A DNA stretch of 64,000 bases from a virus. The notes below the pieces were generated by a model. The model was not told where the DNA came from, ran no database searches, and saw nothing but the letters and a program-made list of their open reading frames with translations. The position numbers and the translations under genes were made by a program. Positions 25,634 through 63,679 of the stretch are shown piece after piece; position 1 is the stretch's first letter; each line of letters opens with the position of its first letter. The DNA is taken from positions 32,001 to 96,000 of the IMG/VR virus record IMGVR_UViG_3300005466_000024. One strand, 5' to 3'.

Positions 25634-26628
25634 CAGCCCTCCCCCGCCGAGCGGATCTTCTCCACGATGCGGGCTTTGTCGGTCACCCAACCCTCCCGGG
25701 CGTCGCCGTTCCAGGGCCACGGCCCGCGGTGGGGCTCGACCCGGTACAGGAAAGCCTGTCCGTGATCCCTCACGAGGTACTTCATCCAGTCGTCCGAATG
25801 CGTGAGGTCATGCTCGACCCACGTCCAGTGAGCCCGGTTGTCCAATCCGCCGTGGTACGGCGCATCGAGCCATGGCGCCTTGCCCTTGCGGGCGTCCAGT
25901 ACGGTACCGACCGGCAGGTCGTGGAAAGTAGCGTGATACCAGTCCACACCGACCGGGGTCGGGTCCGGGGGGTGGTCGCGGTAGCGTTGCTGCCAGCCAC
26001 GCTCGTCGTAGGCGTCCTGCGGGCCCAGGAAGTGGCCCTCGGACCCCTCGGGGTCGGTGCGATCGTCGAGGAGGAAGCCGGGTTCGCGCCACACGTCGGG
26101 GTCGCGGGGTGCGGCTACTCGGTGCGCGTGCCACGCGGCGACCCTCTCCCCGGCGATCGGAATTTCCAGCCAATCGTCGGGATGCTGCCGACGTATCCGA
26201 ATCGACTGGGGATTGACCCCATCCTTGCCCCTGAATCGGTAGTACTGACCCATCCATGGCTCGGCAGCGCTCGTATCACCGTCACCGGAAACAATCACCT
26301 GGTAGTGGGCCTTGGGATCCACGTTATTAGGGCCGACACCATAGGTGAGCTTATGGGTCGAGAACCTCTCGGCAGATTTGGGATCGGGAGTCCACCACTC
26401 CCCTAATCCCTTAGTTCCCAAATGGTTGAGTAGGTTCGGAGCCAAGGACAGATCCGACTTCCCGCCAAGAGCCGACTCCAATTGAGCAACGAGGTTGGGG
26501 GGCATATCTTCTCGCCGCAAAGCAATACCGCGATGCAAACGAGTAGGTGGACCACCATCCGGAACGAGTTGAGACATCCCCTGATGCCACACCGCCACCC
26601 TCTCGCGGGCCGTGAGGATGCGTCTCAT
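25633..26628 (-). CDS. Two-domain protein with putative ADP-ribosyltransferase-fold domains
   Basis: Starts MRRILTARERVAVW. Domain 1: LHRG...GEWWTPDPKSAERF. Domain 2: WYHAT.HDLPVGTVL...FLYRVEP...WVTDKARIVEKI (Arr-like). Confidence 0.55.
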   Translation of the reverse strand: MRRILTARERVAVWHQGMSQLVPDGGPPTRLHRGIALRREDMPPNLVAQLESALGGKSDLSLAPNLLNHLGTKGLGEWWTPDPKSAERFSTHKLTYGVGPNNVDPKAHYQVIVSGDGDTSAAEPWMGQYYRFRGKDGVNPQSIRIRRQHPDDWLEIPIAGERVAAWHAHRVAAPRDPDVWREPGFLLDDRTDPEGSEGHFLGPQDAYDERGWQQRYRDHPPDPTPVGVDWYHATFHDLPVGTVLDARKGKAPWLDAPYHGGLDNRAHWTWVEHDLTHSDDWMKYLVRDHGQAFLYRVEPHRGPWPWNGDAREGWVTDKARIVEKIRSAGEG

Positions 26629-27605
26629 CGGGGCCACTGCGATCCCCAGCTGATGGCCGGTGCCGCCGGGTAGAACCGCCACGCGCGGACAGCCGATGCG
26701 TAAGTTCCGCTGACGAACAGACCACGGGCGCCGCCGCCGTAGATGCCGCCGGCCACCAGCAGTGAGCCGCGTCCCATGCCGAGCAGTTTGCGCTTGGCCA
26801 TCTTGACCATCTTGACCCACTCCGGATATTCCTGGGCCAGGATTTGCGCCCACCGCTGCGAGTAGGCGGTGCGGTCGGTGTAGGTGACGTTCATGTTGGG
26901 GCGGGCCGGGATTTCGACGTAGGAGTCGCGCAGATGCCGGATCACCTCCAGGTAGGTGCCGACCACCTCGAGGCCCGCGAAGCTCGACGGTGGCGGGTTG
27001 GTGAGGTTCCAGTCCATGACGGGGAAGCCGGTGACGCTCATCCGGGTGGTGGCGATGCCCATCAGTTGGCTGATGCGTTCGCTGTCGAAGTGGGTTTGGA
27101 ACTCGTCCATCAGGTGGGGGCCACCCTCGGCGCTGTCGTAGAGATCGCCGAACATCCAGTTGACCTGCTCGACGACGAGCTTGTGCGCGTCGTCGAGGGT
27201 GTCGTAGATCGGCATCTGGTTGAGCACCTGCAGGTGGTCCAGGAAGGTCAGCAGCGTGCCGTTGACCTGGTAGGTCCATTGGGCGGTGAGCACGCCGCGC
27301 TGTCCGGTGAACTGGGGGCCGATCGGCATGTCGTACATGCCGGTGTCGACCCGGTTGATGCCGTCGGTGGTGTCGAGTACCAGGGTGCCCAGTGGGTCGT
27401 TGGTGGGTTGTACCTCCAGGGTGGGGTCCAGGTAGTACAGCTGGACGCGCAGGGTGCCGGGGTCGGCGTCCACCGCGGTGCCGTCGGGTTTGCGGATGTT
27501 CAGGGCGATGTATCCGTACCCGTTTTGGGATACGAATTTCCGCACCACGGATTGATCTTTGATCTTGGGAGAAAACACACCGATCCCAGACGGCTCAATT
27601 GCCAT
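26625..27605 (-). CDS. Head-to-tail adaptor/neck protein
   Basis: Position between head decoration genes and the stopper-like gene; helical C-half. Confidence 0.55.
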   Translation of the reverse strand: MAIEPSGIGVFSPKIKDQSVVRKFVSQNGYGYIALNIRKPDGTAVDADPGTLRVQLYYLDPTLEVQPTNDPLGTLVLDTTDGINRVDTGMYDMPIGPQFTGQRGVLTAQWTYQVNGTLLTFLDHLQVLNQMPIYDTLDDAHKLVVEQVNWMFGDLYDSAEGGPHLMDEFQTHFDSERISQLMGIATTRMSVTGFPVMDWNLTNPPPSSFAGLEVVGTYLEVIRHLRDSYVEIPARPNMNVTYTDRTAYSQRWAQILAQEYPEWVKMVKMAKRKLLGMGRGSLLVAGGIYGGGARGLFVSGTYASAVRAWRFYPAAPAISWGSQWPR

Positions 27606-27626
27606 GTCGAATCACCGGCCTACTTG

Positions 27627-28601: not shown

Positions 28602-28664
28602 GGGTCCGCCTTGCTGTCGCCGGGGGACCCGCGGCGGGCCGCGGGTCCCTCTCCGATTCCTCCC

Positions 28665-29390
28665 TTACGGGGTCGGCAGCACGCCGCCCCATGCGGTACC
28701 GGGCGTCTTGGGGCCGACTGCCGTCGAGTCGTAGAAGTCCTTCACCGGGTCGAAGTTCTTGGTGGTGGGGCACACCAGGGCTCCGACGGTGCCCTTGGTG
28801 GAGGCGCCGGTGTTGACGGCTACCTGCGGGCTCAGTGCCCCCAGCGCCGGGTTCCCGCTCGTGGTCACCGCGACGTCGATGGAGGGGTCGGTGCCGCCGG
28901 TCAGGCCGGTGGAGCCGACGAACGTGTTGGGCAGCCAGTCGGCGGCGATGGGGATGGTGATGACGCTGTTGGCCAGCGAGCCGGCGAAGGTCACGATCCA
29001 GGGGCCGCCGTTGGGGCCGCTGACCGTGACACCGCTGGAGCCGATGGCGGGCAGCGCGCGCAGCGCGCTCTGCATCGATGCGTTGCTGGCGTTGTAGGAC
29101 AGCGGGGTGGTGGCAGCGTCACCGAACACCAGGTAGAACTGACCGCCGGTGGGCGAACCCTTGACGGTGATGGTTTCGACCTCGCTCTGGGCGGCCACGT
29201 TGGTCCAGCCGACGGCATGGGCGTCGGCGGTGACGGCGTTCTCGGCGCTGATGCCGGTGGCCGGCGGGGTGGCCAGCACGTCGAGCACGGTGTTGTTCTC
29301 GTTGCCGCTGATGTTGGCTCCGAAGCCTGGCGGCGCACCCGCACTGTAATGCCGCGTCTGGAAGCTGCCGGAGAAGATAGGGCTGGTCAT
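28665..29390 (-). CDS. Head decoration/whisker-like protein
   Basis: Contains the ITVKGSPTGGQFYLVF...YNASNASMQSALRAL...GGPWIVTF module widespread in mycobacteriophage structural proteins. Confidence 0.65.
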   Translation of the reverse strand: MTSPIFSGSFQTRHYSAGAPPGFGANISGNENNTVLDVLATPPATGISAENAVTADAHAVGWTNVAAQSEVETITVKGSPTGGQFYLVFGDAATTPLSYNASNASMQSALRALPAIGSSGVTVSGPNGGPWIVTFAGSLANSVITIPIAADWLPNTFVGSTGLTGGTDPSIDVAVTTSGNPALGALSPQVAVNTGASTKGTVGALVCPTTKNFDPVKDFYDSTAVGPKTPGTAWGGVLPTP

Positions 29391-29421
29391 GTGGGTTTCC
29401 TCTCAGTGCTGGTCGGCGCGC

Positions 29422-32107: not shown

Positions 32108-33112
32108 TTAAGCTTTGCGCAAAATCATGAGCCCGCGCGGATTGATCACGACCATGCCCAAAAGTTCGTCCATGACCCAGCCACGATGGAACTTGGGCAC
32201 GTTGTTGTCCTCTTCGACGTCGAGGCTGTACATGATCGGCAGAACTCCGAGGAATTCCGGTGCCGGCGTCAGGTACGTGGTGCCCTTGGGGATGATGATG
32301 GACTTGCCGATCTGGAATTCACCGAACTGGACGATGCGCTCGCCGGCGACGACGCTGTCCTTGAACGCCCAGCCGGTCGTCGCGATGTCCCACCGGTAGA
32401 AGTCCCGGTATTCGTTGGGGTTGCACAGCAGCCGAGACGAATCCAACATGCGCTGATCGGTGAAGGTCACCGCGGTGTACAGGTCGTTGGGTTCCAGGTT
32501 CTCCCCGGCCACGGTGATCTCGTTGGGCAGGCTGCCCGTCGAGGGGTTGGCGGTGGCGTCGACCAGCCGGTACTGGGCGGCCGACACCTCGAGCAAGGTC
32601 ACCAGGCGCGCGTCCTCCTGACGCATGATGCCCTGTTTCGATTCGTCCTGGGTGTACTCCACGATGTTGCTGCGGAGCCAGTACAGGTCTTCCTTCTTGA
32701 TGTTCGGGAACGTCGCGATGCGGAACAGCTCGACCCGCACGCGTTTGCCCTCGAAGGGGGTGATCTGCACTTCGCCCTCGTCGCCGTGCAGGATGTAGGC
32801 CTGCCCCAGGTCGTCGAGCACGTCGTATTCGACTGGGACGCCGGGGGTGAGCGCGTCCTCGAGCAGGACGTTGCGCACGATGCCCTGGTAGCGCAGCTTG
32901 AGCTGGATCGGGCCGATCATGGATTGCCCGAGACGCAGCAGGCCGTTCTGCTTGTCGTTGAGGATCTGGGCGAGTTGGATCTGCTTTTCGCGGGTGGACA
33001 GTTTGCGACCGCCCATGCGTCGCATCATGCCCGCCATTTCGGCGGCGTATTCCTCGGAATGCTTTGCGAGCTTGCCGAATCCGGTTGCGACCGGGAGTGT
33101 CGCCATGTTCAT
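32108..33112 (-). CDS. Major capsid protein (Bxz1-like)
   Basis: LGQSMIGPIQLKLRYQGIVRNVLLED...FEGKRV..LFRIATFP.IKKEDLY recognised as the cluster C-type capsid. Confidence 0.92.
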   Translation of the reverse strand: MNMATLPVATGFGKLAKHSEEYAAEMAGMMRRMGGRKLSTREKQIQLAQILNDKQNGLLRLGQSMIGPIQLKLRYQGIVRNVLLEDALTPGVPVEYDVLDDLGQAYILHGDEGEVQITPFEGKRVRVELFRIATFPNIKKEDLYWLRSNIVEYTQDESKQGIMRQEDARLVTLLEVSAAQYRLVDATANPSTGSLPNEITVAGENLEPNDLYTAVTFTDQRMLDSSRLLCNPNEYRDFYRWDIATTGWAFKDSVVAGERIVQFGEFQIGKSIIIPKGTTYLTPAPEFLGVLPIMYSLDVEEDNNVPKFHRGWVMDELLGMVVINPRGLMILRKA

Positions 33113-33146: not shown

Positions 33147-33677
33147 TCAGCTGCCCGCCACCGCGCCGGAGGCGAAGTGGAACCTGTTGAGCCGCACGAG
33201 GATCTTGTCGGTCCCGTAGACGTCCATCAGTTCGGCGACGGCGTTGGTGTTGTCGGCGCCGGTGGGGGTCAGTAGGCCCTTGTTGGTGCCGGTGAGCAGG
33301 GTGCGGCCACCGTCGGAGGGGTTGTAGGAGTTCCAGTTGGCGGTCTGGTCGAAGGCCGGGGCGAAGATGACGAACGTCGCCTCGGAGTCGCCCACCCATA
33401 CGGTGAAGTTGTTGGCACCGGTGCCGGTGACCTCGTCGATCCCCAGGGTGGGGGCGCAGAACAGCGCCGAGAGGCCGAACGGCCTCTGGTTGCCGGTGCC
33501 CTTGTAGGGGGTGAAGAGCTCGCCGCCGAGTCGGCACATGACGCTGCCGGGGTAGATGTCGAAGCTGCGGTCGAAGTTGGGGTCCAGGAATCCCGCGTAG
33601 GTGGTGGCCTGCGTCTGGGCGTACTTGGGCTGAATAGTCCTTTTCTGACCGGGGTTGGCCAGGGTGGGCCGGAACAT
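33147..33677 (-). CDS. Capsid decoration protein
   Basis: 176 aa gene between scaffold and MCP; IYPGSVM motif. Confidence 0.65.
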   Translation of the reverse strand: MFRPTLANPGQKRTIQPKYAQTQATTYAGFLDPNFDRSFDIYPGSVMCRLGGELFTPYKGTGNQRPFGLSALFCAPTLGIDEVTGTGANNFTVWVGDSEATFVIFAPAFDQTANWNSYNPSDGGRTLLTGTNKGLLTPTGADNTNAVAELMDVYGTDKILVRLNRFHFASGAVAGS

Positions 33678-33686
33678 GATGGTCTC

Positions 33687-36545
33687 CTAAATGAACAGCG
33701 CGCTGTCGTTGCTGGGGTCGGTGGCCGCGTACCGCACGTTCGAGGGAGCCGTGCGAGGTGAGGTCAGGCCGGGTGGGATGCGCCCTGCGGCACCAGAGGC
33801 CGCGGCCAGGCGCCGGGAGGCGCTGCGGGCGCGGGTGGCGTTGGCTTGCGCCACCGCCTCCAGGAGTCGGGTGCGGTCCACGATCGTGGCGTGGCGCATC
33901 TGCTGGGCCTGGGCGACCAGCTGCCATTTGTCCTCGTAGGGCAGGCCGCTGTTGATGTAGGCCTCGGCGTAGCGCACTGCCGCGACCGCGTCGGCCTTGC
34001 GGTTGAAGGAGGCGGCCCGTTCCTCGCGATCGGAGGTGCCGCCGCCTTCCCCGGGCGCCCAGATCTGCGAGTTGGTGGACAGGTCGGGTTTGGCGACACT
34101 GTCGCCCGCGTTCTGCCCGAACTCGCCGATGTCGTACTGGCTCTGCTGGGCCCGCTGATCGGTGGTGTCGTTGACCGGTGCCTCCACGTCCACCCGCTCA
34201 TCCGGCGCTGCAACTTCCAGCGATTCGTTGGCACGGCGATCCATGGCTTCCCTCCTGTCGACCTCAGCCCTTCTGGCCCGCCGCAGAAAAACTTCCAGCG
34301 CGGGGAACATGGCCTGCAGGGGGACGCCCGACGCTTCGGCGTAACGAGCCGCCTGGCGCCGAACGAAGTTGGGGTGGTGTGCGGTGGCCGACCGGCCGGT
34401 GGTGGCGCGCATCCAGTCGTCGAATGCCGCGAACGCGCGCACCGAGGCGTCCTTGGGTTGGGTGGAGTCGCTGACCAGTTCGACGTCGGTGAAGTCGTGG
34501 CCCTTGATGTCCTGGTCGTCGGTGCCGCTCAGCGGCGGGTCGAGCACCCGGGAGTCGGTGGTGGCTTCGGCGGCGGTGCGACGACGAGAGTCCTTGTCCC
34601 ACGGGAACTTTTTGTCGTCGTCCTTGTCCTTGTCGTCCTCGTCGTCGTCACTGCCGCACTCGTCGGAACCGGTGAGTGCGCGGTAGGCCTGGATGTCTCG
34701 TTCGAGGTCGACCGAACGACCCCGGATGCGTCGGCGCAGCGAGGCCACCAGGTTGTCGGGGGTGTTGGTGATCTTGGAATCACCGTCCCTGGGCGCTTCG
34801 ACGGCCTCGCCGCCGGGGGTCTGGCTGACGTACACCGGCTCCTGCTCGCCCTGGTCGTTGTCGTCGGTGTGGTAGGGGCCGCCCTCGACGTCGCCCGATC
34901 CGTCGGAGTCGGCGAAGTGCTGCTGGGGCGCCTTGGCGTGCCGGGAGGCCTGCACGACCCGCTCTGTCAACCCGCTCATGCGATGTGCCTCCTTGGACGG
35001 CTTTCTCTTTTCCTTGCGGTTGGCCGCAACCTGTTGCTGCAGTGGCTCGTCGTCGTCACCGAACGCCTGCTCGGCCTGCTGCAGGTCGCCCTCGGCTTCC
35101 TGCAGCAGCTCCGCGTCGGACTTGCCACTGCCATCTCCGCTGTCGCCGGAGTCGTCCGAGTCGCCGTCATCGGAGCCGGAGTCGTCGTCCTCGTAGTCGC
35201 CGTCGTCGGACTCGTCGGAATCCGATGTGTCGTCCTCGTCGCCGTCGGAGTCGTCGGAACCGTCGCTGTCGGAGTCGTCGTCCTCGGCCAGCCATGGCGG
35301 CAGGCCCTTGCCGTCGTCCTCCTCCGCGAAGACGTAGCGCCTCCCGGTCCGCGGGTCGATGAGGATTTGCGGGCGCTCGGCGTAGTCGGCAGAACGCTCG
35401 TGGTTACGGCGCTGCTTGGTGCGGGCCATGTTTCCCCTCCTCAGCCGGGGGTCTTCGGGGTCGACGTCCTCGACGTCTTCGGCGCGGCGGTCGGCGTCTA
35501 ACCCTTCTTCTTCCTGTTCGCGGTCGAGTTGCTTGGTTCGCGACAGGTCGGGGGTGCGCAGTTCCTTCGGCGACCGGATGGTCTGCTGGAACGGGACGTC
35601 GTCCTGTTCCTCGTTCTCCCACGGCGTGATGAACTGGTAGTCGCCGTCATCGAGGTCTTCCCGGCGCAGCGTGTCGATGTCCTCGGGAGCCTCCACCTCG
35701 CCGTACCCTCGCCGCTCGGTGCCGCCTTCGTGGTGGCGACGTCTCTTCTCCTCGAGTTCGGCGTCGAGCTGGTCGAGGAACTTGTCGGGGTCGAAGTAGT
35801 CGCGGATCCGCTGCCGCAGTCGGCTCGGGTGCTCCTCCTCCGGGGGCAGCTCCTTGATGGTGCGGTAGTCCCAGCCTTCGCGGTGGCCTGGCTGACGGCC
35901 GGCGGCGATCACCCGGCTGACCAGCGCGGTCTCGTCGGCCGGGTCGAACACGTACGACAATTCGAAGAACCCGAGTTTCTCGCAGATCTCGTGGACCGGT
36001 TCGACACGCCCGGTGCGCGGGTTGTACAGTTTCTCGCCCTTGCGGGCCGCGACGTGCTCGCAGAATTCTGGTTCGTCGGTGGCCCGGTTACCGCAATGGC
36101 TGCAGATGGTGACCGCGCACTCGACGCCCATCGACACCGAGTCCAGCCCGCCTTCGCGAATCTCCTTGGCCAGCTTGGGGAATCGCTGGGCGTCGACCTC
36201 CATGATGGTTTCGATGTACCGGTCGTCCCCGGCCTCGACGTAGCGCGCGGCGATGACCTTACCGCGGGCCTTTTTCCAATCTTCATTGGTATGGTTTACG
36301 AAGATCGGTTTCCCGATGAATGACCTGTAGCTCTTTTTCAATTCCTCGGAGGGCCAGGCGTCGTAATTCTGATTTATCCTGGCGGTTATCGCCCGAACTT
36401 GCGAGTACAGGAATCCTGGTTTCGGTGCCCAATTTCTGGCTATCGCGGCATGCTTCTGCCCGTGATATGCCATCAGTACTTGTTTGACGCCATCAACGGA
36501 AAAATGCCGCGATGACCCCGTCTTGATCGGGCGAACTATCGACAT
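33687..36545 (-). CDS. Capsid maturation protease fused to long acidic scaffold/internal region
   Basis: N-domain FIGKPIFVNH...SVSMG...CSHCG...FFELSYVFDPADETA, followed by a D/S/E-rich linker. Confidence 0.8.
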   Translation of the reverse strand: MSIVRPIKTGSSRHFSVDGVKQVLMAYHGQKHAAIARNWAPKPGFLYSQVRAITARINQNYDAWPSEELKKSYRSFIGKPIFVNHTNEDWKKARGKVIAARYVEAGDDRYIETIMEVDAQRFPKLAKEIREGGLDSVSMGVECAVTICSHCGNRATDEPEFCEHVAARKGEKLYNPRTGRVEPVHEICEKLGFFELSYVFDPADETALVSRVIAAGRQPGHREGWDYRTIKELPPEEEHPSRLRQRIRDYFDPDKFLDQLDAELEEKRRRHHEGGTERRGYGEVEAPEDIDTLRREDLDDGDYQFITPWENEEQDDVPFQQTIRSPKELRTPDLSRTKQLDREQEEEGLDADRRAEDVEDVDPEDPRLRRGNMARTKQRRNHERSADYAERPQILIDPRTGRRYVFAEEDDGKGLPPWLAEDDDSDSDGSDDSDGDEDDTSDSDESDDGDYEDDDSGSDDGDSDDSGDSGDGSGKSDAELLQEAEGDLQQAEQAFGDDDEPLQQQVAANRKEKRKPSKEAHRMSGLTERVVQASRHAKAPQQHFADSDGSGDVEGGPYHTDDNDQGEQEPVYVSQTPGGEAVEAPRDGDSKITNTPDNLVASLRRRIRGRSVDLERDIQAYRALTGSDECGSDDDEDDKDKDDDKKFPWDKDSRRRTAAEATTDSRVLDPPLSGTDDQDIKGHDFTDVELVSDSTQPKDASVRAFAAFDDWMRATTGRSATAHHPNFVRRQAARYAEASGVPLQAMFPALEVFLRRARRAEVDRREAMDRRANESLEVAAPDERVDVEAPVNDTTDQRAQQSQYDIGEFGQNAGDSVAKPDLSTNSQIWAPGEGGGTSDREERAASFNRKADAVAAVRYAEAYINSGLPYEDKWQLVAQAQQMRHATIVDRTRLLEAVAQANATRARSASRRLAAASGAAGRIPPGLTSPRTAPSNVRYAATDPSNDSALFI

Positions 36546-43596: not shown

Positions 43597-46026
43597 CTAA
43601 TCCCATTCCGGTGTGACACCCGTCACGTATTCGTATTGTTCTGCCAGTTCCCGTGCGATATCCGCCGACTCGCGTGCCTGCCCGGCCATAATGGCAGGCC
43701 AGTCGGCCTGGAGCTGGGATTCGTGCGGCGAGTTCAGCAGGGCGTAGAACCCGGGATCGTGCACGAGATCCTCCATGCGGGGGACGGGATGGCGGGCGAT
43801 GACCTCGCGACGGCGCACCGCGTCGGTGACGCGTTGTTCGGAGGCGCGCCGCGCGCTGCCGTAGGAACTCGGCCCGCGTTCGAACTGGCTCAGTTTGCGG
43901 GTGTGCCCGTTGGTGGCGGCGGCGCGGGGGGCACCGGCGCGCAGGTCGTCGGACTCCTCGGGGCGCGCCCGATTGCGCGCCACCTCCACGGGAGGTGGCG
44001 CTGCCCCGAGCGGGGGCATGCCCGGCCCACCTGGGGGCGGGCCACCGGCCTGATCGTCCTCCATTCCCGGCGGTGGGGGTGGCGGCATCGGCACGGTGCC
44101 GGGTAGCAGTCCCAGCTGGCCGGCGGGACTCATCTGCGCGGCCTGCTGTTCCATCTGCTTCTGCTGGGTTTCCATCAGGTCGGTTTGGGCGAGCTGTTGG
44201 CGCAGCACCAGGGTCTGGGTCAGCCATTGGGCCAGTTCGGCCGGGTACGGCAGTTCCTTCTGGTCGATGATCTTCTGGGCCTTGGACATGGCCTCGGCCT
44301 CGGCGACCAGCTTGTCGACCTTCTCGTTGCCCTGGCGCACCAGTTCCTGGTCGAATTGCACCGGCAGGTTGACTGCCATGGTTTTGTCGGAAATCGGAAT
44401 CCCCATCTGCTTCAACTGGGTGATGAACGCCCGCTCTGTTTGTTCGTCCCGCAAATTCAGCGAGGAGAATCGGATTTCGGGGATCAGCAGCTTGGGCGCA
44501 CGCACCACCCTTTTCTCCCCGGTCTCCGGATCCTCTTCGATGACCTCACGGTACAAGGGGCGCCGCACCCCACCCTTGAGTTCGTAGTCGAAGTGCTCCT
44601 GGGCCTCGGCGATGACCTCCATCCGCTTGCGGATGTGCTGGACGACCTTGCGTTGGAAGCCCTTCATCAGCAGCTCGCACACCTCGCGGTTGAGGGCGGA
44701 GGAGGCGTAGGTGCCCGCCGCGGCGGTGCCGCCCATCACCAGCGCCGACCCGATCCCCCATGCCTGCATCAATTTCATGTCGATGCGTTCGTAGTCCTGA
44801 TCGAAGCGCGGCACCGCTTCGCGGCCGAACACCGGTTGGATCTGCAGCCCGAAGTGATGGCACATCAGCTTGAAGTCGGCGGCCAGCGCGGACTGGAAGT
44901 CGTCGCGCAGATCATCGAGTTCGCTTTGGTCGGGGATCCATGGTTCGCCGTCGCCCATGTCCTGGATGCCGAGGGTGGCCAGGATCAGCGGGCTGTAGAG
45001 CCGGTCGGCCACCGAGTCCTGGGCGGCGTTCAGGCTCTCCTCCATCAGCAGGGTGCCGAACGAGCGCATCAGGAACGGGGTGCCCCGCAAGTCCCAGGGG
45101 CTGGTCTTGTTGACGATGCGACTCCACAGGGCCTCGGAGATGTCCAGGCCGTCGTCCTGGGTGGCCGCGGAGATGACCTCCGGATAGTGCTTGACCAGCT
45201 GCTGGTACTCCCAGGTGCGTTCCTGGCGTTCGCTGTGCGATTCCTCGCCCAGCGCCATGCCCTGCGGGCCGGCGCGCAGCGATTCGACCATGTCCTTGAC
45301 CAGCAGCTGCACCCGCTCCTCGGTGACGAACAGGCTCTTGGAGACTCGCACCATGTCGGGGTTGAGGATCTCCTCGGAGCTCCAGATGCCCAGCTCCTCG
45401 TTGAAGTGCGCCAGCGAGGTCACCTCGCCGCTGATGTAGTACTCCCGGCCCAGGCATTCGGGCAGCCATTCCTCGTAGTTGAGCTGGTTGAGGAACATGT
45501 CGGAGTAGAAGTTCTCGATCTGCGGATCCTTGGACACGAATTCCAGGCCGGTGAGCGGGAAGCGGGCGTAGATGTCGATGAGCAGCGGCACCAGGTCGTG
45601 GATGCAGTAGAACAGTCGACTCCAGGCCCGGGCCTCCGACAGCTGTTTGGGGTCGGCGATGTCCAGTGGGATGCCCTTGTCCTGCAGCGACATTCCGGGG
45701 GTGCGTATCTTGGGCAGGGCCATGGTCAAATCGGAACCGGTGCGGCGCAGCCCTCCGGTACGCGCCGCGTTGGCCAATCGGGAGCGGCGCATCTGTGCGC
45801 GCACTGTGCGGGTATTCTCCGACAGCGCCCCGGGGGTGTTGACCATGCCCTCGACCTGTTTGGCGGTGATGCGGGCCTGCACCGGGGACTGGGGCAGGCC
45901 GGGGTAGCCGGCGGCTTTGAGCCGGCGCAGTTCGGTGTCGAAGCCGCCCGTCACCAGTCCCGACGAACTGCGGCTGACGCCGCGCCGATCGGTGACGCTA
46001 AATCCTCGAGGGCCTGGGGCTGTCAC
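43597..46026 (-). CDS. Portal protein
   Basis: 809 aa; WSRLFY...LIDIYARFPL, ILNPDMV, RGTPFLMRSF..L..EESL..AQ..VADRLYSPL, Pro-rich C-tail; lies in the head module. Confidence 0.8.
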   Translation of the reverse strand: MTAPGPRGFSVTDRRGVSRSSSGLVTGGFDTELRRLKAAGYPGLPQSPVQARITAKQVEGMVNTPGALSENTRTVRAQMRRSRLANAARTGGLRRTGSDLTMALPKIRTPGMSLQDKGIPLDIADPKQLSEARAWSRLFYCIHDLVPLLIDIYARFPLTGLEFVSKDPQIENFYSDMFLNQLNYEEWLPECLGREYYISGEVTSLAHFNEELGIWSSEEILNPDMVRVSKSLFVTEERVQLLVKDMVESLRAGPQGMALGEESHSERQERTWEYQQLVKHYPEVISAATQDDGLDISEALWSRIVNKTSPWDLRGTPFLMRSFGTLLMEESLNAAQDSVADRLYSPLILATLGIQDMGDGEPWIPDQSELDDLRDDFQSALAADFKLMCHHFGLQIQPVFGREAVPRFDQDYERIDMKLMQAWGIGSALVMGGTAAAGTYASSALNREVCELLMKGFQRKVVQHIRKRMEVIAEAQEHFDYELKGGVRRPLYREVIEEDPETGEKRVVRAPKLLIPEIRFSSLNLRDEQTERAFITQLKQMGIPISDKTMAVNLPVQFDQELVRQGNEKVDKLVAEAEAMSKAQKIIDQKELPYPAELAQWLTQTLVLRQQLAQTDLMETQQKQMEQQAAQMSPAGQLGLLPGTVPMPPPPPPGMEDDQAGGPPPGGPGMPPLGAAPPPVEVARNRARPEESDDLRAGAPRAAATNGHTRKLSQFERGPSSYGSARRASEQRVTDAVRRREVIARHPVPRMEDLVHDPGFYALLNSPHESQLQADWPAIMAGQARESADIARELAEQYEYVTGVTPEWD

Positions 46027-56175: not shown

Positions 56176-56694
56176 CTAATATGGTCGGGCGGCGATCCGA
56201 TACGGCTGGAACGGGGTGTCGGCCCGCACGTAGAGCGGGTGTTTCGGTGAACCGTCGGCGTTCACTCCGAGGCAGATCGGATTGATGGGATCGGGCCAGT
56301 CGTGGGCCAGTGCCGCGAGCGCCTTGTGGGAACCCCACGCCACCAGCGTCATCGAACCGACGGGTCGGCTCAGGTAGTTGTCGTTCAACGGTCCGAATGG
56401 ATCGGGATCGGCCAGCAGTGCCGCAGGATTCGTTGCGCGCAGCGCGAATCGGTTCGTGACCCGGATGGATCCATACCCCCATCGCCGGGCGAATCCGGGC
56501 CGCTTTCCGGTGCCGACGAGGCGCCCGATTGTCGGGTCATCGACTAATCCGTCCGCTTTGGAGGGGTTGAGCATCTGCACTTCCAGGACGGGTAGCTGCG
56601 CATCCCAGGTGCGGATCAGCTCGTATCGGTACCGTCCACATTCGCTGATCACCGCAGATCGAACCATATCGTCCACGATGGGCGCGGGTCTCAC
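56176..56694 (-). CDS. DUF1643-family protein
   Basis: SECGRYRYEL.R.W, MLNPSKAD...DDPTI, N.FA.RATNP, LVAWG, GSPKHPLY. Confidence 0.8.
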   Translation of the reverse strand: MRPAPIVDDMVRSAVISECGRYRYELIRTWDAQLPVLEVQMLNPSKADGLVDDPTIGRLVGTGKRPGFARRWGYGSIRVTNRFALRATNPAALLADPDPFGPLNDNYLSRPVGSMTLVAWGSHKALAALAHDWPDPINPICLGVNADGSPKHPLYVRADTPFQPYRIAARPY

Positions 56695-58958
56695 CCCTTG
56701 AGTTCCTTCAGCACGTCGTACCCCCTGCCATCCGGAGACCGGCGCACGAGTGCGTCGTATCCCAATCCCGACTCTTCATCGGGCATCACGAACGCATCGT
56801 ACGGCCCCGCCTCGGCCCGCGGCCGGATCGACACGGCTCCCGACGGGTCACCGCCCACCAGGTCTGGGACCGTCCTGGTGTTCTCGTGTGGCCCGTACCG
56901 TTCGCCGAACTCCGGATCACGGTTGCGGAAGTGCTCGCCCTCGTCCAGGGCGTTCTCCCCGGCCATCCGCTGCGGCCATTGTTCGGCCTGGGTCTCGATG
57001 CGGCGCGTCACACCCTTTCCCGTTAGGCATCGTCGGGTTCTCCAAGCCGCACAGCGCCATAGTTCCAGTTCTGCGAATCGGCGGCGACCGGTTCGGGTAG
57101 CCGCTTCCAGCGGTTCGGATTCTCCAACGCCAGCGCGATGGCCATGTCGGCGTTCGCCGCGTAGACCTCTTGGGTCAGTGCTGTCTTCGGGGTTGCGGTG
57201 ACCAGATATTTCATCGTGTTGCTCCTGTGGTGTGTGCCGATCACGTTCGGGCGTTCGGGCAGCCCGCAGCATGGAACCGATCACTACTGAGCGCATCGGC
57301 TCCACAGCAAGTCCATCGACCCGTTTCGGGATCCCACTGCGGCGCATCGAGAGAGGTCCCTGGCGGATGCGCGACCCATGGCGCCACCCGCGTTCCAGGC
57401 ATCGGCCAGTGCGCGTAGATCTTCATCACGTCCCCCAGGACGCGCAGGCGTAGAAATATCCGGCCCAGAATTGGGCACTGCTTTTCTGCTCCGGGCTCAA
57501 TTGCGGCAGGGCATCGATGTCCTTCCGTGCCCGCTCCACGTCCCTGCGGTCCGCGGGGTCGAACCGAACCAGCTCCTCCTCGGTGTGCCGGTGGAACAGG
57601 ATGACCTCGTCCCCGATCTGCTGCATGAGCCACGTGCCATCGGGCGGTAGTTGTGCCATCAGCGGTAGTCCCCCGTCATGGTGGTGGTCATGACTCACCT
57701 TCCGCTTGCTCCATTGCGTACCGCTTGAGATCGGCTACGTTCTCCGCCCACTCGACGTTCGGCAGGTCGCTCCCGATTTCCTCGGGTTCGATCTTCACGT
57801 CACCATCGTCGCGATGACCGGTGTAGGACACCATGGGCCGGTCAACCCACTGCCTGCCGACCACCATCCGATCACAGGTCACCGGTCGATACCGTTTGTG
57901 CTGCGCCAACCGGTCCTTGTGGGCGGTCAGGCATTCGTCGCACACGTTGAGGACCAGTTCCTCACCATCGAGACTGTCCCAGAACGTCGACCCATACGCC
58001 CCATAGGTGCGAAATTCGGTGCCATCGGCGGGCTGGTTCTCCACAGCGGAGAACACATTGCTCAGCGTCGTGCCGCACACGAAGCAGGGTAGGAGGGCAT
58101 CTCGACTCATGGTTGTTCCTCGGTCAGTGTCAGCATGCCGGGATCGGTGGCCTTGGCGTGGTGACCACCGGCATAGAGCACGAACACCCAGGGGCCGCGT
58201 ACCGCGGTGATCACCCCGGTTTCGGCGCTGCCGCCCGCCGGCCGGTAGACAACCGGCTTGTCCAGATTGTTTCGTGCCTGTTCGATCGTCATGAGTGCAC
58301 CTCGTCGCAGTCGATCTGGCAGCTGTTCTTGGCCATCACCAGGGTGTGTCGGACGCCATCGCGCCACTCAATGCGCCTCGGTGGTGTCGACCCGATCTGG
58401 GGCCAACCCCTCGCGACGAAGTGCATCGACCAGGTGCCCTCCCAGCGATCGACGGTGTAGCGCCCGCCGCCGGGGGCGGCGGCGCTGTGACTGGTCCTGC
58501 CGACCTGACGCCACCGCAGGCGCTTCATCGTGCGCTGCGCTCCCTCATCGATGGTCACGATGGCCTTCTTCCGTGAGTGCCGCGACCTGGCGTTTGGCCT
58601 CGGCCACCACAGTCTCGGCTTTGCGCTGGTCCTCGGCGTAGGTGTCGACGCCCATGTGTCCGGTTTCCTGCAACCGGCGCAGCTGCAGCTCCTCGGTGAC
58701 CAGGTCGCGATAGGTGTCCCACCCATCGCAATGACCACCGAAACCCAGGTGTGCCAGTGGATCACCGCCATCGGCCAGCCAGCAGTCCCCGAACCGCGGG
58801 TCGATCTCCTGGTAGCAGGCACGGCAAGCGATGCAATCGGCGCACCCCTTGGCCGAGGCGGCACAGCATGTGGTGAGTGGGTTGATGACGGTCTCGCCAT
58901 TGGGGTAGGTCTCGAGGTGCAGCGCGACGGGTGCCTCGGCGTTGATGATGGTCATCAC
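56691..58958 (-). CDS. Cluster of small hypothetical genes (56691..57011, 57023..57214, 57241..57429, 57426..57698, 57688..58110, 58107..58292, 58289..58558, 58545..58958)
   Basis: Chain of coupled short ORFs typical of phage accessory regions; some starts are uncertain. Confidence 0.55.
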
Positions 58959-59673: not shown

Positions 59674-59913
59674 CTAGTACCGGAACCCGTCTGCGCGGCC
59701 CACGGACGCCCACAGTTCGGCCAGCTCGTTCTCCTGGGACGGCAGCAGTCCCAGTGCACCCATCAGATCCCGGGCGTCGGCAACCCGCTCGGCGTGGGTG
59801 TCCCCGACCGCGTAGGCGCAGACCAGGCGCCGCACACTGGCCCGCTGCAGATCCGTCAACGGGGTCGGCACGAAGTCATCGACCTCGGCGATCTGGTTGC
59901 GCGAATCACGCAT
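59674..59913 (-). CDS. Hypothetical protein
   Basis: Coupled to the terminase stop; GAGGA RBS. Confidence 0.55.
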   Translation of the reverse strand: MRDSRNQIAEVDDFVPTPLTDLQRASVRRLVCAYAVGDTHAERVADARDLMGALGLLPSQENELAELWASVGRADGFRY

Positions 59914-62105
59914 CAGCGTCCTCCCCTGATCATGTGGTCGATACCGCGCCGACCCTGGGACGTCTCCCGCATCTTGATCGAGGACGCCCGTGAGGGCATG
60001 TAGGTGTCGCGGCCGTTTCCGTAGAGCGCGGCCAGCTTACGACGGCCCTCCGCGCCCGGTAGCCGCTCAGCCTCCCGGCCGCTCTTGAGCGCGGCCACGT
60101 TGCTCGAGCCGGTGGTCAGCGCTACCCGCCCGGTGTTGCCGAACCGTTCCAGTGCGTCGTGCAACAGGTCGGCCACCACCACACAGAACGCATCCGCGAG
60201 ATCCTTCGTCGTCACCGGCCCGATCTCCTGTTTGACGATGCGCCCGTTGCGGTCCTGCAGGAACCGCAGCTCCATCTCCAGCAGGGAGCCACCGTCCTCG
60301 TAGTAGGTGTCGCGGAAGCTGCTGACCCACCCCAGGTTCAGCGCCGACTTCACCCTCTCGAACCGGACGAAGTTCTCCCGCTCGGTGAACGTCGCCTCGG
60401 CAACCCGGATCGAGGGGGAGAACTTCTCCCGCAGCGCGTGGATGGCTCCTACCGAGTTCCACTGGTCGAAGCTCATCTTCGTCGTGGAGGGGAATGCGGT
60501 GAGGATGGCCTCGATGTCTCGCTGCACCCACATGTAGTTGATGGTGGGCACCCCGGTTTCGGGGTCGGGCGGGAAGTCCTGGGGCTTCCACACCCGCATC
60601 ATGTCGATCACGCAGTGCGGCCGGATCACACCGCGAGGGCCGGCGTCGCTGCAGGCGTGCGTGGTGTCCTCGCCGTAGGGCACCATGTGCCCGCACACGT
60701 CGCAGGGGGCGTTCTCCAGGTGCCCGACGCACAGCGCGAAGTTGGCGCCGGTCTTGCCGGGGTCGGCGTGGATGCGGTACTTGCGGTACAGGTAGCCGCG
60801 GCCCTGGGATTCGAGGCTACCCAGCCAGTCCGGCGGGGTGAACAGTCGGTCGACCACGCCGGGCTCGAGGTAGGCCCCTTCGACCTCTGCCCACTGGGCG
60901 GCCCGTTCCACCTGGAATTTCTCTGGGTTACGTAGTTTGCGACGTTGCTGGCTTTCGTGCTCGGGGCCGGGCTGGATGGGGCGTTTCTTGTGGATGCCGA
61001 TCAGCTCCACGCCGCGTTCCCAGTCCAGGTACAGCCCCCAGCTGGGCAGCTGCACGATCAGCATGGTGGGGTTGGCGTCGATCTCCACGGCTTCACCGGC
61101 TGCCACCGACAGTGCGGTCAGTTCGTGGCGGGCCCGCTCACCGATGCCCTCGCCGTCCTCGTGGTAGGCCGACATCAGCACGCTGCCCTCTTGGTAGAGG
61201 CTGTAGGCCTTGCCCGCCTTGCGGTAGGGGGAGGTGGGGATGTAGGTCAGCGCATCGAGGTCGAACTGGTCCAGACTGGGGTGGGCGTCCTCGTAGATTT
61301 CGTCGCCGCTCTTCACGCTTCCCGTGCCAAATACCATGTGCGCGAATTCGTCGAGGAACAGCCCGAAGGCGGTGGCGCCGCGGAAGGCCGGCGCCGAGGC
61401 CGACAGTGCCTGAACGACCAGAGTGGCCACGGAGTGTTCGACCGACACCCCGGCCGCCTCCAGTTCACCGATGCGTCGGATGTCGGCCGGGGTGCGGATC
61501 GTCAGGATGTGGTCCTTGGATTCGGCGATGGCCGACTGCAGGTATTTGCAGCGCTCCACCATGGACCGGATATCGGCGAACAGTTGCTGTTTGGCCTGAG
61601 TTTGGCTGGTGGCGCCGACGTTGAGGTAGCCGTCCTTGCCGGGGTCGACACCGTAGTAGGCCTGCCAGTCGTCCAGTGAGTAGAAGTAGGCCGCCTGTTC
61701 ACAGCCCAGGAGGCCACCGTTGAGGCCCTTGGAGCCTCGTCGACCGCCGACGAACTGGATGTGCGGGAATCGGCGCGCACCGCGGGCCTTGAGGTAGGCG
61801 ATGCGCTCCCAGATGTCGGGTTGCACCCCGAACACGTCGCGTCGGCGTTTGAAACCCTGCCGCCATTCCTCGATGACATCGATGTCGTAGGCGGTCATCT
61901 GGTCGGTTTCGAGGAATATCAGCCGCAGCAGGGTGATCTGACGCGGGTACAGTGCCACCCCGCAGAAGCTGGGGTGGCACGCGAAGTCCTTGATGGAGTC
62001 CCAGGGTGCGGGGCGAACAGCGGTGGCCGCGGCGCGCAGCGTCGCGATCGGATCGAATTCCTGCTGGAGGAGAGCCAACTGTTGGCGGGGGTAAAAAGCA
62101 CACAT
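59913..62105 (-). CDS. terL: Terminase large subunit
   Basis: Walker A GGRRGSKG, Walker B FLDEFAH, nuclease motifs IHADPG, FDQWNS and KDLADA. Confidence 0.9.
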   Translation of the reverse strand: MCAFYPRQQLALLQQEFDPIATLRAAATAVRPAPWDSIKDFACHPSFCGVALYPRQITLLRLIFLETDQMTAYDIDVIEEWRQGFKRRRDVFGVQPDIWERIAYLKARGARRFPHIQFVGGRRGSKGLNGGLLGCEQAAYFYSLDDWQAYYGVDPGKDGYLNVGATSQTQAKQQLFADIRSMVERCKYLQSAIAESKDHILTIRTPADIRRIGELEAAGVSVEHSVATLVVQALSASAPAFRGATAFGLFLDEFAHMVFGTGSVKSGDEIYEDAHPSLDQFDLDALTYIPTSPYRKAGKAYSLYQEGSVLMSAYHEDGEGIGERARHELTALSVAAGEAVEIDANPTMLIVQLPSWGLYLDWERGVELIGIHKKRPIQPGPEHESQQRRKLRNPEKFQVERAAQWAEVEGAYLEPGVVDRLFTPPDWLGSLESQGRGYLYRKYRIHADPGKTGANFALCVGHLENAPCDVCGHMVPYGEDTTHACSDAGPRGVIRPHCVIDMMRVWKPQDFPPDPETGVPTINYMWVQRDIEAILTAFPSTTKMSFDQWNSVGAIHALREKFSPSIRVAEATFTERENFVRFERVKSALNLGWVSSFRDTYYEDGGSLLEMELRFLQDRNGRIVKQEIGPVTTKDLADAFCVVVADLLHDALERFGNTGRVALTTGSSNVAALKSGREAERLPGAEGRRKLAALYGNGRDTYMPSRASSIKMRETSQGRRGIDHMIRGGR

Positions 62106-62120
62106 CAGAGGCTCTTTTCC

Positions 62121-62501
62121 CTACCCACCCGCTCCCGCCGGACCGATGAGTGTGTCCGGCGTGGTTGGGGGTCCACCGGCCCCAGGGCCGAATATCGTGG
62201 TGCCCGGCGGGGTCGAAGTGTCGCCGAACGCTTCCCGACCGTACTGGTCCGGGCCGCCGGATCCGGCCCACGGGTCCTTGGCGGGACCGGTCAGGGTGGT
62301 GTAGGCGGTTTCGCTGGGGAACGGGGTGTCGGGGACGTGGGAGAACGGGGGATCACCGGGCATGCCGACGTTCGTGCCGACCGCACCGGCATCGATGCCC
62401 TTGGTGTCGGTGCAGGTCGGGTCGCCGGGGGCGCATTCGGCTTCTCGGATCCACTCGTACCAGACGGCGACCCGTTCGTGTGCGGTCAGGATGCGTCTCA
62501 C
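62121..62501 (-). CDS. Pro/Gly-rich small protein with RRILT..ERVAVW N-terminus
   Basis: GTG 62501 overlaps the upstream TGA; reads VRRILTAHERVAVWYEW. Confidence 0.65.
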   Translation of the reverse strand: MRRILTAHERVAVWYEWIREAECAPGDPTCTDTKGIDAGAVGTNVGMPGDPPFSHVPDTPFPSETAYTTLTGPAKDPWAGSGGPDQYGREAFGDTSTPPGTTIFGPGAGGPPTTPDTLIGPAGAGG

Positions 62502-63679
62502 GCGTACTCCGGCTTGCGCTTGTCGCGGTTGCGGACCAGGTCTTTGCCCAGTGGGGGCACCGGGTAGTCGCCCCCGCCGGGGGTCATCTCCCGGGATTGG
62601 TTGATCCAGTGGTACAGGTCGCGGGCCATCAGCCATTCGTCCCGACTGCCGTATTCCTGCGGCTGCGGCCCGGACGGTGGGGTGATGAAGTCGCTTGGGT
62701 CGTACCAGTGCGCGGCTTCGCGCAGCCCGGTGACGGCGTAATCCACGAGCATCGACGTGCGGGTCGGGCGGTGGTAGCCCGGCGCAGACACTGGGTGTGG
62801 GTCGGGCAGCCGGGGGTCGTCGGATTCCTTGGAGTAGTCGGGCAGCGGGAACTTCAGCGGGCCGGGTTCGGCTTGGCGCGGTTCCTGGTAGGGCTTGCCG
62901 GGGTGGCGGCGATCCCAGGTGTCGTGTTTCTGCTGCTCCTTGGCTCTGTCGAGGTCGTTCTTGAACTTCAGCCAGATGGTGGCCTGCATGTGGGCCGGGG
63001 AGATGCCACGTTCGGCGGCGGCCTTGCGTACGACGTCGGCGTAGGCCTCGTAGCCGGCGGGTTGGCCTCCGCGCTGCCAGCCCAGCGGGGCCAGGGATGG
63101 ACCGGCCTTGGCGAATTCGCCGCCGTGGGGGCTGTTGAGTGCGCGAGCCATGTGGGTGTCGATGGTGACTGCGTTGTCGTCGCCCATGAAGTTGCGGTAG
63201 AAGTTGTTGACCTTGGGGCCGGTGCCCAGTTCGGTGAGCACGCCGTCGGGATGGGCGTCGTGGATGCGCATGGCGCGCAGGATGTTCTCGCCCAGCCCGC
63301 TCATCCCGGTGCCGGTTTGCCGCCCCGGCTGCCTGGGATCGTCGCGCAGCCATTGCTGTTTCTGGGCGGGATCGTAGTTGAGCAGGAAATGTGCCCCGGT
63401 GGACAGGTTGGTGTCCCAGTCCTGGCGCGGCGACAGCGCGGCCATGATGGCCGCGCTGCGCGAGTAGTCCCTGTTGGTGGCCCCGGACAGGTTGTGCAGC
63501 CATTCCCGGGCCGCGGGGTACCACTGTCGGCCACCTTCGCGTTCCTCGTCGGTGGCGTTGTCCCAGTGCGACAGGGCGTTGTGGTACAGCGCCGGGGTGT
63601 CGATGAGATCCTCGACCGGGACGGCGGCCTCCTCGTACCAGACCGCTACCCGCTCGTAGGACGTCAGGATGCGCCTCAT
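62498..63679 (-). CDS. HhH/glycosylase-like (DUF7178-type) domain protein with RRILT..ERVAVW N-terminus
   Basis: WYPAAR, AALSPRQDW.TN, GPKVNNFYRN, AVTIDTHM, Y..YADVVRKAA...G.SP..MQATIW. Confidence 0.55.
   Translation of the reverse strand: MRRILTSYERVAVWYEEAAVPVEDLIDTPALYHNALSHWDNATDEEREGGRQWYPAAREWLHNLSGATNRDYSRSAAIMAALSPRQDWDTNLSTGAHFLLNYDPAQKQQWLRDDPRQPGRQTGTGMSGLGENILRAMRIHDAHPDGVLTELGTGPKVNNFYRNFMGDDNAVTIDTHMARALNSPHGGEFAKAGPSLAPLGWQRGGQPAGYEAYADVVRKAAAERGISPAHMQATIWLKFKNDLDRAKEQQKHDTWDRRHPGKPYQEPRQAEPGPLKFPLPDYSKESDDPRLPDPHPVSAPGYHRPTRTSMLVDYAVTGLREAAHWYDPSDFITPPSGPQPQEYGSRDEWLMARDLYHWINQSREMTPGGGDYPVPPLGKDLVRNRDKRKPEYA

What the first reader, a model, noticed from the sequence alone, without database searches (positions are those of the whole stretch)
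26584..63679. Family of unrelated cargo proteins sharing an N-terminal RRILTxxERVAVW peptide: candidate capsid-targeted effector system
Seen: three genes start MRRILTARERVAVWH (26628), VRRILTAHERVAVWY (62501) and MRRILTSYERVAVWY (63679), and a fourth partial copy is internal. Downstream sequences are unrelated (ART-like, Pro/Gly-rich, glycosylase-like). Established: T4 internal proteins use a short N-terminal capsid-targeting sequence removed by the prohead protease. Inference: an analogous packaging signal delivers enzymes with the DNA. I am not aware of this being characterised in actinophages.
Basis: partly seen in the sequence, partly recalled or inferred. Interest (0 to 1): 0.8.

Follow-up and report, generated by a model that had tools for sequence, protein, structure and literature searches.

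The report
Shared N-terminal tag on phage enzymes
A 181-kb relative of mycobacteriophage Bxz1 starts several otherwise different late proteins with the same 14-residue peptide, a local form of a tag that heads about 145 protein families in this phage group only. The tag most likely loads enzymes into the virus particle, but nobody has tested this.

Summary
Three minus-strand genes in the window start M/V-RRILT(A/S)xERVAVW(H/Y), and a fourth lies 2.6 kb before the window. Codons differ synonymously, so the peptide is what is conserved. An internal ERVAAWH in the first gene is a leftover tag at a domain junction. Two further genes carry a divergent form, RR(I/V)ETQAEQWPQR.

The peptide is a shortened local form of a roughly 21-residue tag, M-x-RRI(V/I/L)TAREQxEMLSPWRxA. 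A profile search found it in 149 protein clusters, and 144 have it at the N-terminus. Bxz1-type phages carry 2-3 tagged genes each. The canonical form gave one match in 185,579 prokaryote genomes. Cargo is mosaic: ADP-ribosyltransferase folds (shown for the 331-aa protein), GNATs and DUF7178. "Glycosylase-like" is unverified.

Tagged genes sit in late structural operons near a protease-scaffold fusion. Some relatives keep internal tags in polyproteins.

Capsid loading in the manner of the T4 targeting sequence is the best reading (about 0.55), but packaging and cleavage are untested. The only protease-linked motif I found is absent from the tags.

This scan reached the same reading before, on this genome and on another.

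The parts
25633..26628 (-). Tagged gene 1 (331 aa). Tag is residues 1-15. There is a weak ART-like N-domain (about residues 22-160), a disordered linker, and an Arr/Tpt1-like ART domain (about 219-331). It lies between homologues of Dandelion gp127 and gp128.
26587..26628 (-). Type-A tag MRRILTARERVAVW. The ATG overlaps the upstream stop (ATGA).
26131..26148 (-). Internal vestigial half-tag ERVAAW at the junction of the two domains of gene 1. It is most simply the remnant of a fusion of two once-separate tagged genes. The N-domain occurs alone in P0043, which ends in a tag-like APWRVAA.
62498..63679 (-). Tagged gene 2 (393 aa). Tag MRRILTSYERVAVWY, then DUF7178 (residues 30-239) and a Pro-rich tail.
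62121..62501 (-). Tagged gene 3 (126 aa, GTG start overlapping the stop of gene 2). Tag VRRILTAHERVAVWY, then a Gly/Pro/Thr-rich tail with no family match. The large terminase gene follows directly.
56691..57011 (-). Probable fifth tagged gene (106 aa) with the divergent type-B tag VTRRIETQAEQWPQRMAG. It has a GTG start 2 nt after GGGAAAGGG. GC3 is 0.82 in the gene and 0.52 upstream in the same frame.
33687..36545 (-). Head maturation protease (residues about 10-215) fused to a long acidic, scaffold-like region (952 aa). It is the candidate receptor and processing enzyme for the tag. It carries four (E/D/A)V(E/A)AP motifs.
32108..33112 (-). Major head protein (334 aa). Its N-terminal GGRKLSTREKQ weakly resembles the tag core.
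33147..33677 (-). Phage cement (minor capsid) protein
43597..46026 (-). Portal protein
59913..62105 (-). Large terminase subunit, directly downstream of tagged genes 2 and 3

Best explanation
The peptide is a portable address tag of Bxz1-type (Ceeclamvirinae-like) actinophages. It is made only in late structural operons. It probably docks its cargo onto a phage-encoded partner during head assembly, most plausibly the acidic protease-scaffold core. The cargo would then be enclosed in the T=16-type capsid and delivered with the DNA. Cargo includes ADP-ribosyltransferase-like domains, GNAT acetyltransferases and DUF7178.

The tag may also carry a processing site. One candidate is after the invariant A-R-E. 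The other is at the end of the conserved stretch, R-x-A | A/S/M/G.

Shown here: the tag is real, sits at the N-terminus, is portable, is limited to this phage lineage, lies in late-operon context, and heads at least one ART-fold cargo.

Inferred only: the capsid as destination, the partner, cleavage, and injection.
For: 1. The peptide itself is under selection, and the four own copies differ by synonymous codons.
2. A profile of 22 tags finds 149 clusters at 50% identity among 1.84 billion proteins. In 144 of them the match starts within the first 14 residues. Lengths run from 33 to 1375 aa.
3. The tag belongs to phages. 211 phage records hold 429 places, nearly all Cluster C mycobacteriophages plus Gordonia relatives. 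The canonical DNA pattern gives 1 match in 596 Gb of prokaryote genomes and 19 in IMG/VR. That argues for a phage-encoded receptor and against a host signal.
4. Context. The tagged genes are translationally coupled inserts in the neck, baseplate and terminase operons here. In relatives a tagged gene lies 0.1-5 kb downstream of the major head gene, often as the very next gene.
5. Orthologous cargo elsewhere carries the long canonical tag (P0043, P0088, P0027). All four type-A copies here share the derived ERVA(V/A)W form. This fits co-adaptation to one partner in this genome.
6. The head machinery is of the scaffold-plus-protease type. PHROG gives head maturation protease at 1e-20, and the model's best fold matches are herpesvirus assemblins.
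7. In L038 and P0013 one reading frame keeps three tags. The internal ones have no start codon. That fits a recognition or processing element better than a signal that must be terminal.
8. The cargo type matches the literature view that myophage ARTs encoded near head genes are packaged (PMC9503650). The C-domain of gene 1 is Arr/Tpt1-like, with VIA Z 9.2 (rmsd 3.8 over 99 residues), 8.8 and 8.3.
Against: - I found no virion proteomics or N-terminal data for any Bxz1-type phage.
- The protease's specificity is unknown. Pfam and PDB sequence searches of the protease domain are empty, and the assemblin fold match is weak (E 0.08).
- The only candidate autoprocessing motif, four (E/D/A)V(E/A)AP in the protease-scaffold protein and nowhere else in real genes, is not in the tags.
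- The resemblance of the head protein's N-terminus to the tag is weak, ranking 109 of 41,385 windows. Its Glu varies to Asp or Gln without matching changes in the tags.
- Here the tagged genes lie in neck, baseplate and terminase operons, not beside the head gene.
- Within-genome uniformity of tags is seen clearly only in this one lineage.
Confidence: 0.55

Rival explanations
1. The tag docks cargo onto another part of the virion (tail lumen, baseplate or neck) and not into the capsid interior.
For: One tagged gene lies between Baseplate_J and DUF7297 genes, and another lies between neck-region homologues. Late co-expression fits any virion site.
Against: In most relatives the tagged genes follow the major head gene. 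Cargo up to 1375 aa, and polyproteins, are hard to fit in a tail. The cargo are enzymes, with no structural folds found.
Confidence: 0.12
2. The tag binds a shared phage partner without entering the virion. Examples would be a chaperone, an inhibitor that keeps toxic enzymes silent until a set time, or a protease that activates them in the cytoplasm.
For: Many cargo are potentially toxic enzymes (ART, GNAT). The tag is phage-restricted and shows a lineage-specific form. Internal tags in polyproteins could be processing sites alone.
Against: I saw no conserved partner gene next to tagged genes. Placement inside structural operons, with overlapping start and stop codons, is typical of virion components.
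Confidence: 0.2
3. The tag is a host-directed signal, for example for export, a degron, or mimicry of a host protein's N-terminus.
For: The twin arginine at the start superficially recalls Tat signals.
Against: No hydrophobic core follows the arginines. The next residues are charged (AREQxE or ARERVA). The canonical pattern is essentially absent from 185,579 prokaryote genomes. Internal copies exist.
Confidence: 0.04
4. The shared start is a DNA- or RNA-level element (a recombination boundary or a translation signal) with no role as a peptide.
For: All four starts overlap upstream stop codons, so the region also serves translational coupling.
Against: Synonymous sites differ freely while the residues are kept. 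The same peptide is kept across phages whose DNA is only about 72% identical even in the portal gene.
Confidence: 0.03

Closest known systems
Capsid targeting sequence (CTS) of phage T4 internal proteins IPI-III and Alt, and the hypervariable internal-protein loci of T4-type phages (my knowledge; reviewed in PMC9026906)
   Same: A short N-terminal peptide shared by otherwise different proteins. Late expression. The cargo includes an ADP-ribosyltransferase. The phage has a scaffold core and a head protease. The cargo is variable behind a constant tag.
   Different: There is no sequence resemblance. The phage lineage differs (actinophage, protease fused to scaffold, HK97-like Myrna-type head protein). 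The tag is longer, about 21 aa in its canonical form. Cleavage and packaging are not shown. T4's L/I-x-E site is not present as such. Internal tags occur in polyproteins.
Propeptide-bearing head and ejection proteins of phiKZ and SPN3US giant phages (PMC5694885, PMC7411985, PMC10052503)
   Same: Many head-internal proteins are processed by a prohead protease after Glu with a small residue at P3 (my knowledge of the motif). The tag core holds A-R-E or S-Y-E.
   Different: Those propeptides are long and are not one shared portable tag. Specificity here is untested.
Phage ARTs and polyvalent proteins predicted to be packaged through MuF or portal fusions or head-gene neighbourhood (PMC9503650, PMC5512222)
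   Same: ART and other conflict enzymes are encoded among head and terminase genes of myophages. Effector architectures are multi-domain and shuffled.
   Different: No MuF or portal fusion is present. Here a short tag, not a structural domain, is the common element. Those papers do not describe this motif, as far as my string search shows.
Herpesvirus UL26-type protease-scaffold fusion and its Ala|Ser maturation sites (my knowledge; fold match)
   Same: A protease domain is fused to the scaffold. The canonical tag ends in R-x-A followed by A/S/M/G.
   Different: The fold match is weak, and no cleavage data exist.
Encapsulin cargo-loading peptides and the N-terminal packaging region of P1 DarB (my knowledge; P1 virion paper PMC9024508)
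   Same: A short peptide is enough to load foreign cargo into an HK97-fold shell, without any need for cleavage.
   Different: Encapsulin peptides are usually C-terminal. There is no sequence relation.

Membership tests
T4-type capsid targeting sequence | Short peptide at the extreme N-terminus, shared by otherwise different proteins of one phage | tested here: met
   Four type-A and two type-B copies in the genome. 144 of 149 clusters have the match at the N-terminus.
T4-type capsid targeting sequence | The tag ends at a cleavage site of the phage's own prohead protease | tested here: inconclusive
   A-R-E, A-H-E or S-Y-E lies inside the tag, and R-x-A|A/S lies at the end of the canonical tag. 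The protease's specificity is unknown. The repeated (E/D/A)V(E/A)AP motif of the protease-scaffold protein is absent from the tags.
T4-type capsid targeting sequence | The phage has an assemblin-fold prohead serine protease and a scaffold core | tested here: inconclusive
   phrog_18299 head maturation protease, E 1e-20. H85 and S136/S138 are invariant. The best Foldseek matches are HCMV and KSHV proteases, but only at E 0.08 and probability up to 0.84. Pfam and PDB sequence searches are empty.
T4-type capsid targeting sequence | The tag is sufficient for encapsidation, is absent from the mature virion protein, and the cargo is ejected with the DNA | not testable with these tools
   No proteomic data in the held library.
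ADP-ribosyltransferase fold (cargo of the 331-aa protein) | ART fold of the catalytic domain | tested here: met
   C-domain 219-331: Arr-2 Z 9.2 (rmsd 3.8, 99 aligned), Arr Z 8.8, Tpt1 Z 8.3. Foldseek gives Arr at probability 1.0, E 0.011. N-domain 22-160 is weak only (PltC Z 5.7, PARP12/14 Z 4.8).
ADP-ribosyltransferase fold (cargo of the 331-aa protein) | Catalytic H-Y-E or R-S-E residues in place | tested here: inconclusive
   His232 of the W-Y-H-x-(S/T) motif is nearly invariant in alignment A3. The other positions were not mapped. Pfam finds no ART family.
DUF7178 (PF23802) | Match above Pfam's gathering score | tested here: met
   393-aa protein, residues 30-239, 113 bits against a cut-off of 27. 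The tag lies outside the domain.
   No PDB hit by sequence or by a 7-sequence profile. There is only depositors' naming in Gordonia phage Skog and a 0.78 atlas lead to Ogg-HhH.
MuF-fused polymorphic effector or polyvalent protein | Fusion to a MuF or portal head domain | tested here: not met
   No MuF or portal family in the four own proteins or among the top families of the 149 clusters.
Tat signal peptide | Twin arginine followed by an uncharged hydrophobic core of 12 or more residues | tested here: not met
   Read directly from the sequence: RR is followed by ILTARERVAVWH or IVTAREQxEML, which hold several charges.

The most novel reading that the evidence does not exclude
Bxz1-type actinophages run a lineage-wide modular delivery system for effector proteins. 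One roughly 21-residue tag, possibly imitating the scaffold-binding N-arm of the head protein, loads shuffled enzyme cassettes into the capsid, some as multi-tag polyproteins cut into units. These are then injected into mycobacteria and their relatives. The tag could be moved onto any protein.
Probability: 0.3. Interest if true: 0.8.

Novelty: new variant of a known kind. Interest (0 to 1): 0.6.

Why it matters
If the tag loads proteins into the particle, it explains dozens of unnamed genes kept in some 200 sequenced Cluster C mycobacteriophages and in many uncultured relatives. It would point to a set of enzymes that act in the first seconds of infection of mycobacteria. It would also give a short, defined handle for asking how HK97-fold capsids with a protease-scaffold core choose their contents.

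It can be tested directly with Bxz1 or Dandelion on Mycobacterium smegmatis. It also corrects annotation, because at least one public gene call starts the 331-aa protein at an internal Met and so loses the tag.

Tried and rejected
- The exact own-type pattern gave no match in IMG/VR. The own variant is known only from this genome and near-identical records (P0020, P0154).
- The head protein's N-terminus as a matching cleavage site: the resemblance is weak and does not co-vary with the tags.
- The tag HMM finds no copy in the portal, head, scaffold or 1222-aa proteins.
- The protease domain gave nothing in Pfam or in a PDB sequence search.
- The 331-aa and 393-aa proteins gave nothing against PDB by sequence. 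A DUF7178 profile also found nothing.
- Pfam finds nothing for the type-B cargo, the Pro/Gly-rich protein or its small neighbours.
- Three 'tag-free' complete relatives turned out to carry a divergent RRI(V/I)THR(E/D)Q tag right after the head gene. Absence was a matter of search sensitivity.
- Literature searches found no Cluster C virion proteome and none of the motif strings.
DUF7178 and the 129-aa protein were therefore not folded.
Full report
WHAT THE WINDOW IS

The window is bases 32001-96000 of a single 180,705-bp contig with 65.6% G+C. Almost all genes are on the minus strand. The nearest named relatives are Cluster C mycobacteriophages of the Bxz1 group. Megablast matched only a 1.4-kb stretch of the portal gene, at about 72% DNA identity. 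Protein families show the same structural gene order as in phage Dandelion.

The head module on the minus strand holds these genes:
- portal, 43597-46026
- a 1222-aa protein with a LysM domain, 36549-40217
- a 952-aa protein, 33687-36545, whose N-terminus matches a head maturation protease family and whose remainder is long and very acidic
- a cement protein, 33147-33677
- the major head protein, 32108-33112

A six-frame search finds three matches to the reported peptide in the window, each directly after a start codon on the minus strand. The genes are 25633-26628 (331 aa), 62121-62501 (126 aa, GTG start) and 62498-63679 (393 aa). The whole genome holds a fourth, a 129-aa gene that starts at genome 29378.

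A position matrix built from tags scores these four at 24-30 bits, while shuffled proteomes give 0.2 hits above 12 bits. A tag HMM against every open frame of the genome finds only these four and the internal remnant.

The four copies use different codons for the same residues, so the peptide is what is kept. In each case GC3 is high after the tag start and drops to 0.44-0.49 upstream in the same frame. The start codon also overlaps the stop of the preceding gene. The tag is therefore the true N-terminus of a translationally coupled gene. A public gene call for the 331-aa protein starts at Met42 and misses the tag.

THE INTERNAL COPY AND A SECOND TAG FORM

The internal copy (GERVAAWH, window 26131-26148) lies in a disordered linker between two domains. 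The N-domain occurs alone in another phage protein, P0043, which ends in a tag-like APWRVAA. The C-domain occurs alone behind a tag in P0009. So the 331-aa gene looks like a fusion of two tagged genes that kept half of the second tag.

Two more genes carry a divergent form:
- window 56691-57011, starting VTRRIETQAEQWPQRMAG
- genome 114668-115657, starting MRRVETQAEQWPQRVAA

The second is the counterpart of the Dandelion gp112 family, whose members carry the canonical tag.

THE TAG IS A FAMILY FEATURE

Dandelion gp111 and gp112 start with MRITSAREQVEMLSPW and RRRIVTAREQFEMLQPW. Of the 73 IMG/VR loci fetched around relatives of the head protein, at least 16 show such a start downstream of the head gene, and many of the others are short fragments.

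I aligned 22 tags (A1) and searched a profile of them against 1.84 billion representatives:
- 149 clusters pass E 0.001.
- 144 of them have the match within the first 14 residues.
- Lengths run from 33 to 1375 residues.
- The consensus is M-x-RRI(V/I/L)TAREQxEMLSPWR-x-A-(A/S/M/G), after which the sequences diverge.

A 24-residue Dandelion tag finds 429 places in 211 phage records. Nearly all are Cluster C mycobacteriophages with 2-3 places each, plus Gordonia relatives.

The canonical pattern, back-translated, gives one match in 596 Gb of prokaryote genomes and 19 matches in IMG/VR. Three complete relatives that seemed to lack the tag carry a divergent RRI(V/I)THR(E/D)Q form right after the head gene. 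The motif strings occur in no paper of the held library.

THE CARGO

Pfam on the 149 clusters names GNAT acetyltransferases (12), DUF7178 (8), glutaredoxin (2) and ParB_N (2). Most clusters get no name. After the tag is removed, 123 of 150 cargo sequences join one single-linkage component. The cargo are therefore shuffled mosaics of shared domains and not wholly unrelated proteins. The four own type-A cargo proteins do not match each other.

The model of the 331-aa protein has mean pLDDT 67 and puts the tag in a helix at residues 7-19. Its C-domain matches rifampin ADP-ribosyltransferase and Tpt1:
- Arr-2: VIA Z 9.2, rmsd 3.8 over 99 residues
- Arr: Z 8.8
- Tpt1: Z 8.3
- Foldseek: Arr at probability 1.0, E 0.011

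The N-domain matches ART folds only weakly (Z 4.8-5.7).

The 393-aa protein holds DUF7178. Its homologues in Cluster C phages align from residue 26-31 onward, that is, after the tag. 'Glycosylase' remains a depositor's label plus a weak lead. PDB searches are empty.

The 126-aa protein is 19% Gly, 16% Pro and 14% Thr after the tag, and has only near-identical relatives.

CONTEXT

- The 331-aa gene is inserted between homologues of Dandelion gp127 and gp128 (neck region).
- The 129-aa gene lies between Baseplate_J and DUF7297 genes.
- The 393-aa and 126-aa genes lie directly before the large terminase gene.
- In relatives a tagged gene usually follows the head gene within 0.1-5 kb.

HOW IT MAY WORK

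Several points suggest a partner encoded by the phage and used during particle assembly:
- The tag is restricted to phages.
- Its genes are made with structural proteins.
- Orthologous cargo carries the canonical tag elsewhere, while all four type-A copies here share one derived form.

The 952-aa protein is the obvious candidate. Its N-domain has an invariant His85 and Ser136/138, and a Cys/His insert. Its model's best matches are herpesvirus assemblins, though weakly (E 0.08). The rest of the protein is acidic, while the tag starts with two or three arginines.

In L038 a 1311-residue frame right after the head gene holds tags at residues 4, 255 and 540, and the internal ones have no start codon. 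The same layout recurs in P0013 and two cluster members. A tag kept inside a polyprotein fits a recognition or cutting element.

WHAT SPEAKS FOR CAUTION

Whether the tag is cut is open. I found no virion proteome of a Bxz1-type phage.

In the protease-scaffold protein, the sequence stays conserved at the edges of the hypervariable region around the motif (E/D/A)V(E/A)AP. This motif occurs four times in that protein and in no other real gene of the genome, and the tags lack it.

The head protein's GGRKLSTREKQ resembles the tag core only weakly:
- The own form ranks 109 of 41,385 windows, and the Cluster C form would rank 13.
- Its Glu changes to Asp or Gln in relatives without any matching change in their tags.

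So two candidate cut sites remain: after A-R-E, or at R-x-A|A/S at the tag's end. It is also possible that there is no cut at all.

COMPARISON AND VERDICT

In logic the closest known case is the T4 capsid targeting sequence and its variable internal-protein loci. The literature already infers that ARTs of myophages encoded near head genes are packaged (PMC9503650). This tag has no sequence relation to T4's, sits in a different phage lineage, is longer, and occurs inside polyproteins. I therefore rate it a new variant of a known kind, with function untested.

Earlier notes of this scan reached the same reading on this genome (e1-5812460) and on another genome (e1-5753020). My tests agree with them. 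They add the type-B tags, the polyprotein evidence, the contrast between prokaryote and viral collections, and the negative results on the protease motif.

Noticed in passing
window 34190-35699 (-), residues 284, 582, 778 and 787 of the 952-aa protease-scaffold protein: Four copies of (E/D/A)-V-(E/A)-A-P lie in this one protein and in no other real gene of the genome. Two of them (YGEVEAPEDIDTLR and LEVAAPDERVDVEAPV) are conserved in about 20 relatives, at the edges of a hypervariable insert. They are candidate autoprocessing or head-protein-binding sites.
   Followed up: partly
window about 36050-36105 (-), residues 148-164 of the protease domain: Invariant Cys148, Cys151, Cys162 and His164 form a zinc-ribbon-like insert inside the head protease domain. 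I do not recall such an insert in other prohead proteases.
   Followed up: no
L038:1573-5505 (+): A 1311-residue reading frame directly after the major head gene holds three tags (residues 4, 255, 540). The internal ones are preceded by Gly and have no start codon. The same three-module form recurs in P0013, P0163 and P0164.
   Followed up: partly
window 36549-40217 (-): A 1222-aa protein with a LysM domain (residues 719-762) lies between the portal and the protease-scaffold gene. A peptidoglycan-binding domain in the head module may mark another ejected protein.
   Followed up: no
genome 114668-115657 (-), outside the window (L004:18668-19657): A 329-aa counterpart of the Dandelion gp112 family carries the divergent type-B tag MRRVETQAEQWPQRVAA. 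The genome therefore uses two tag forms side by side.
   Followed up: partly
window 25633-26505 (-): Public collections hold the 331-aa protein only as a 290-aa form starting at Met42, so the tag is missing from existing gene calls.
   Followed up: yes
P0008 (metagenomic protein, 330 aa): One protein joins a homologue of the 129-aa baseplate-operon cargo to the Arr-like domain of the 331-aa protein. This shows cassette shuffling among the tagged cargo.
   Followed up: partly
L076 and L077 (Gordonia phage Skog-like records): In these phages the tag keeps only RRI(V/M)TAREQ and then continues with FADFPQVSPDKPRPGHP. The first nine residues therefore look like the minimal conserved core.
   Followed up: no
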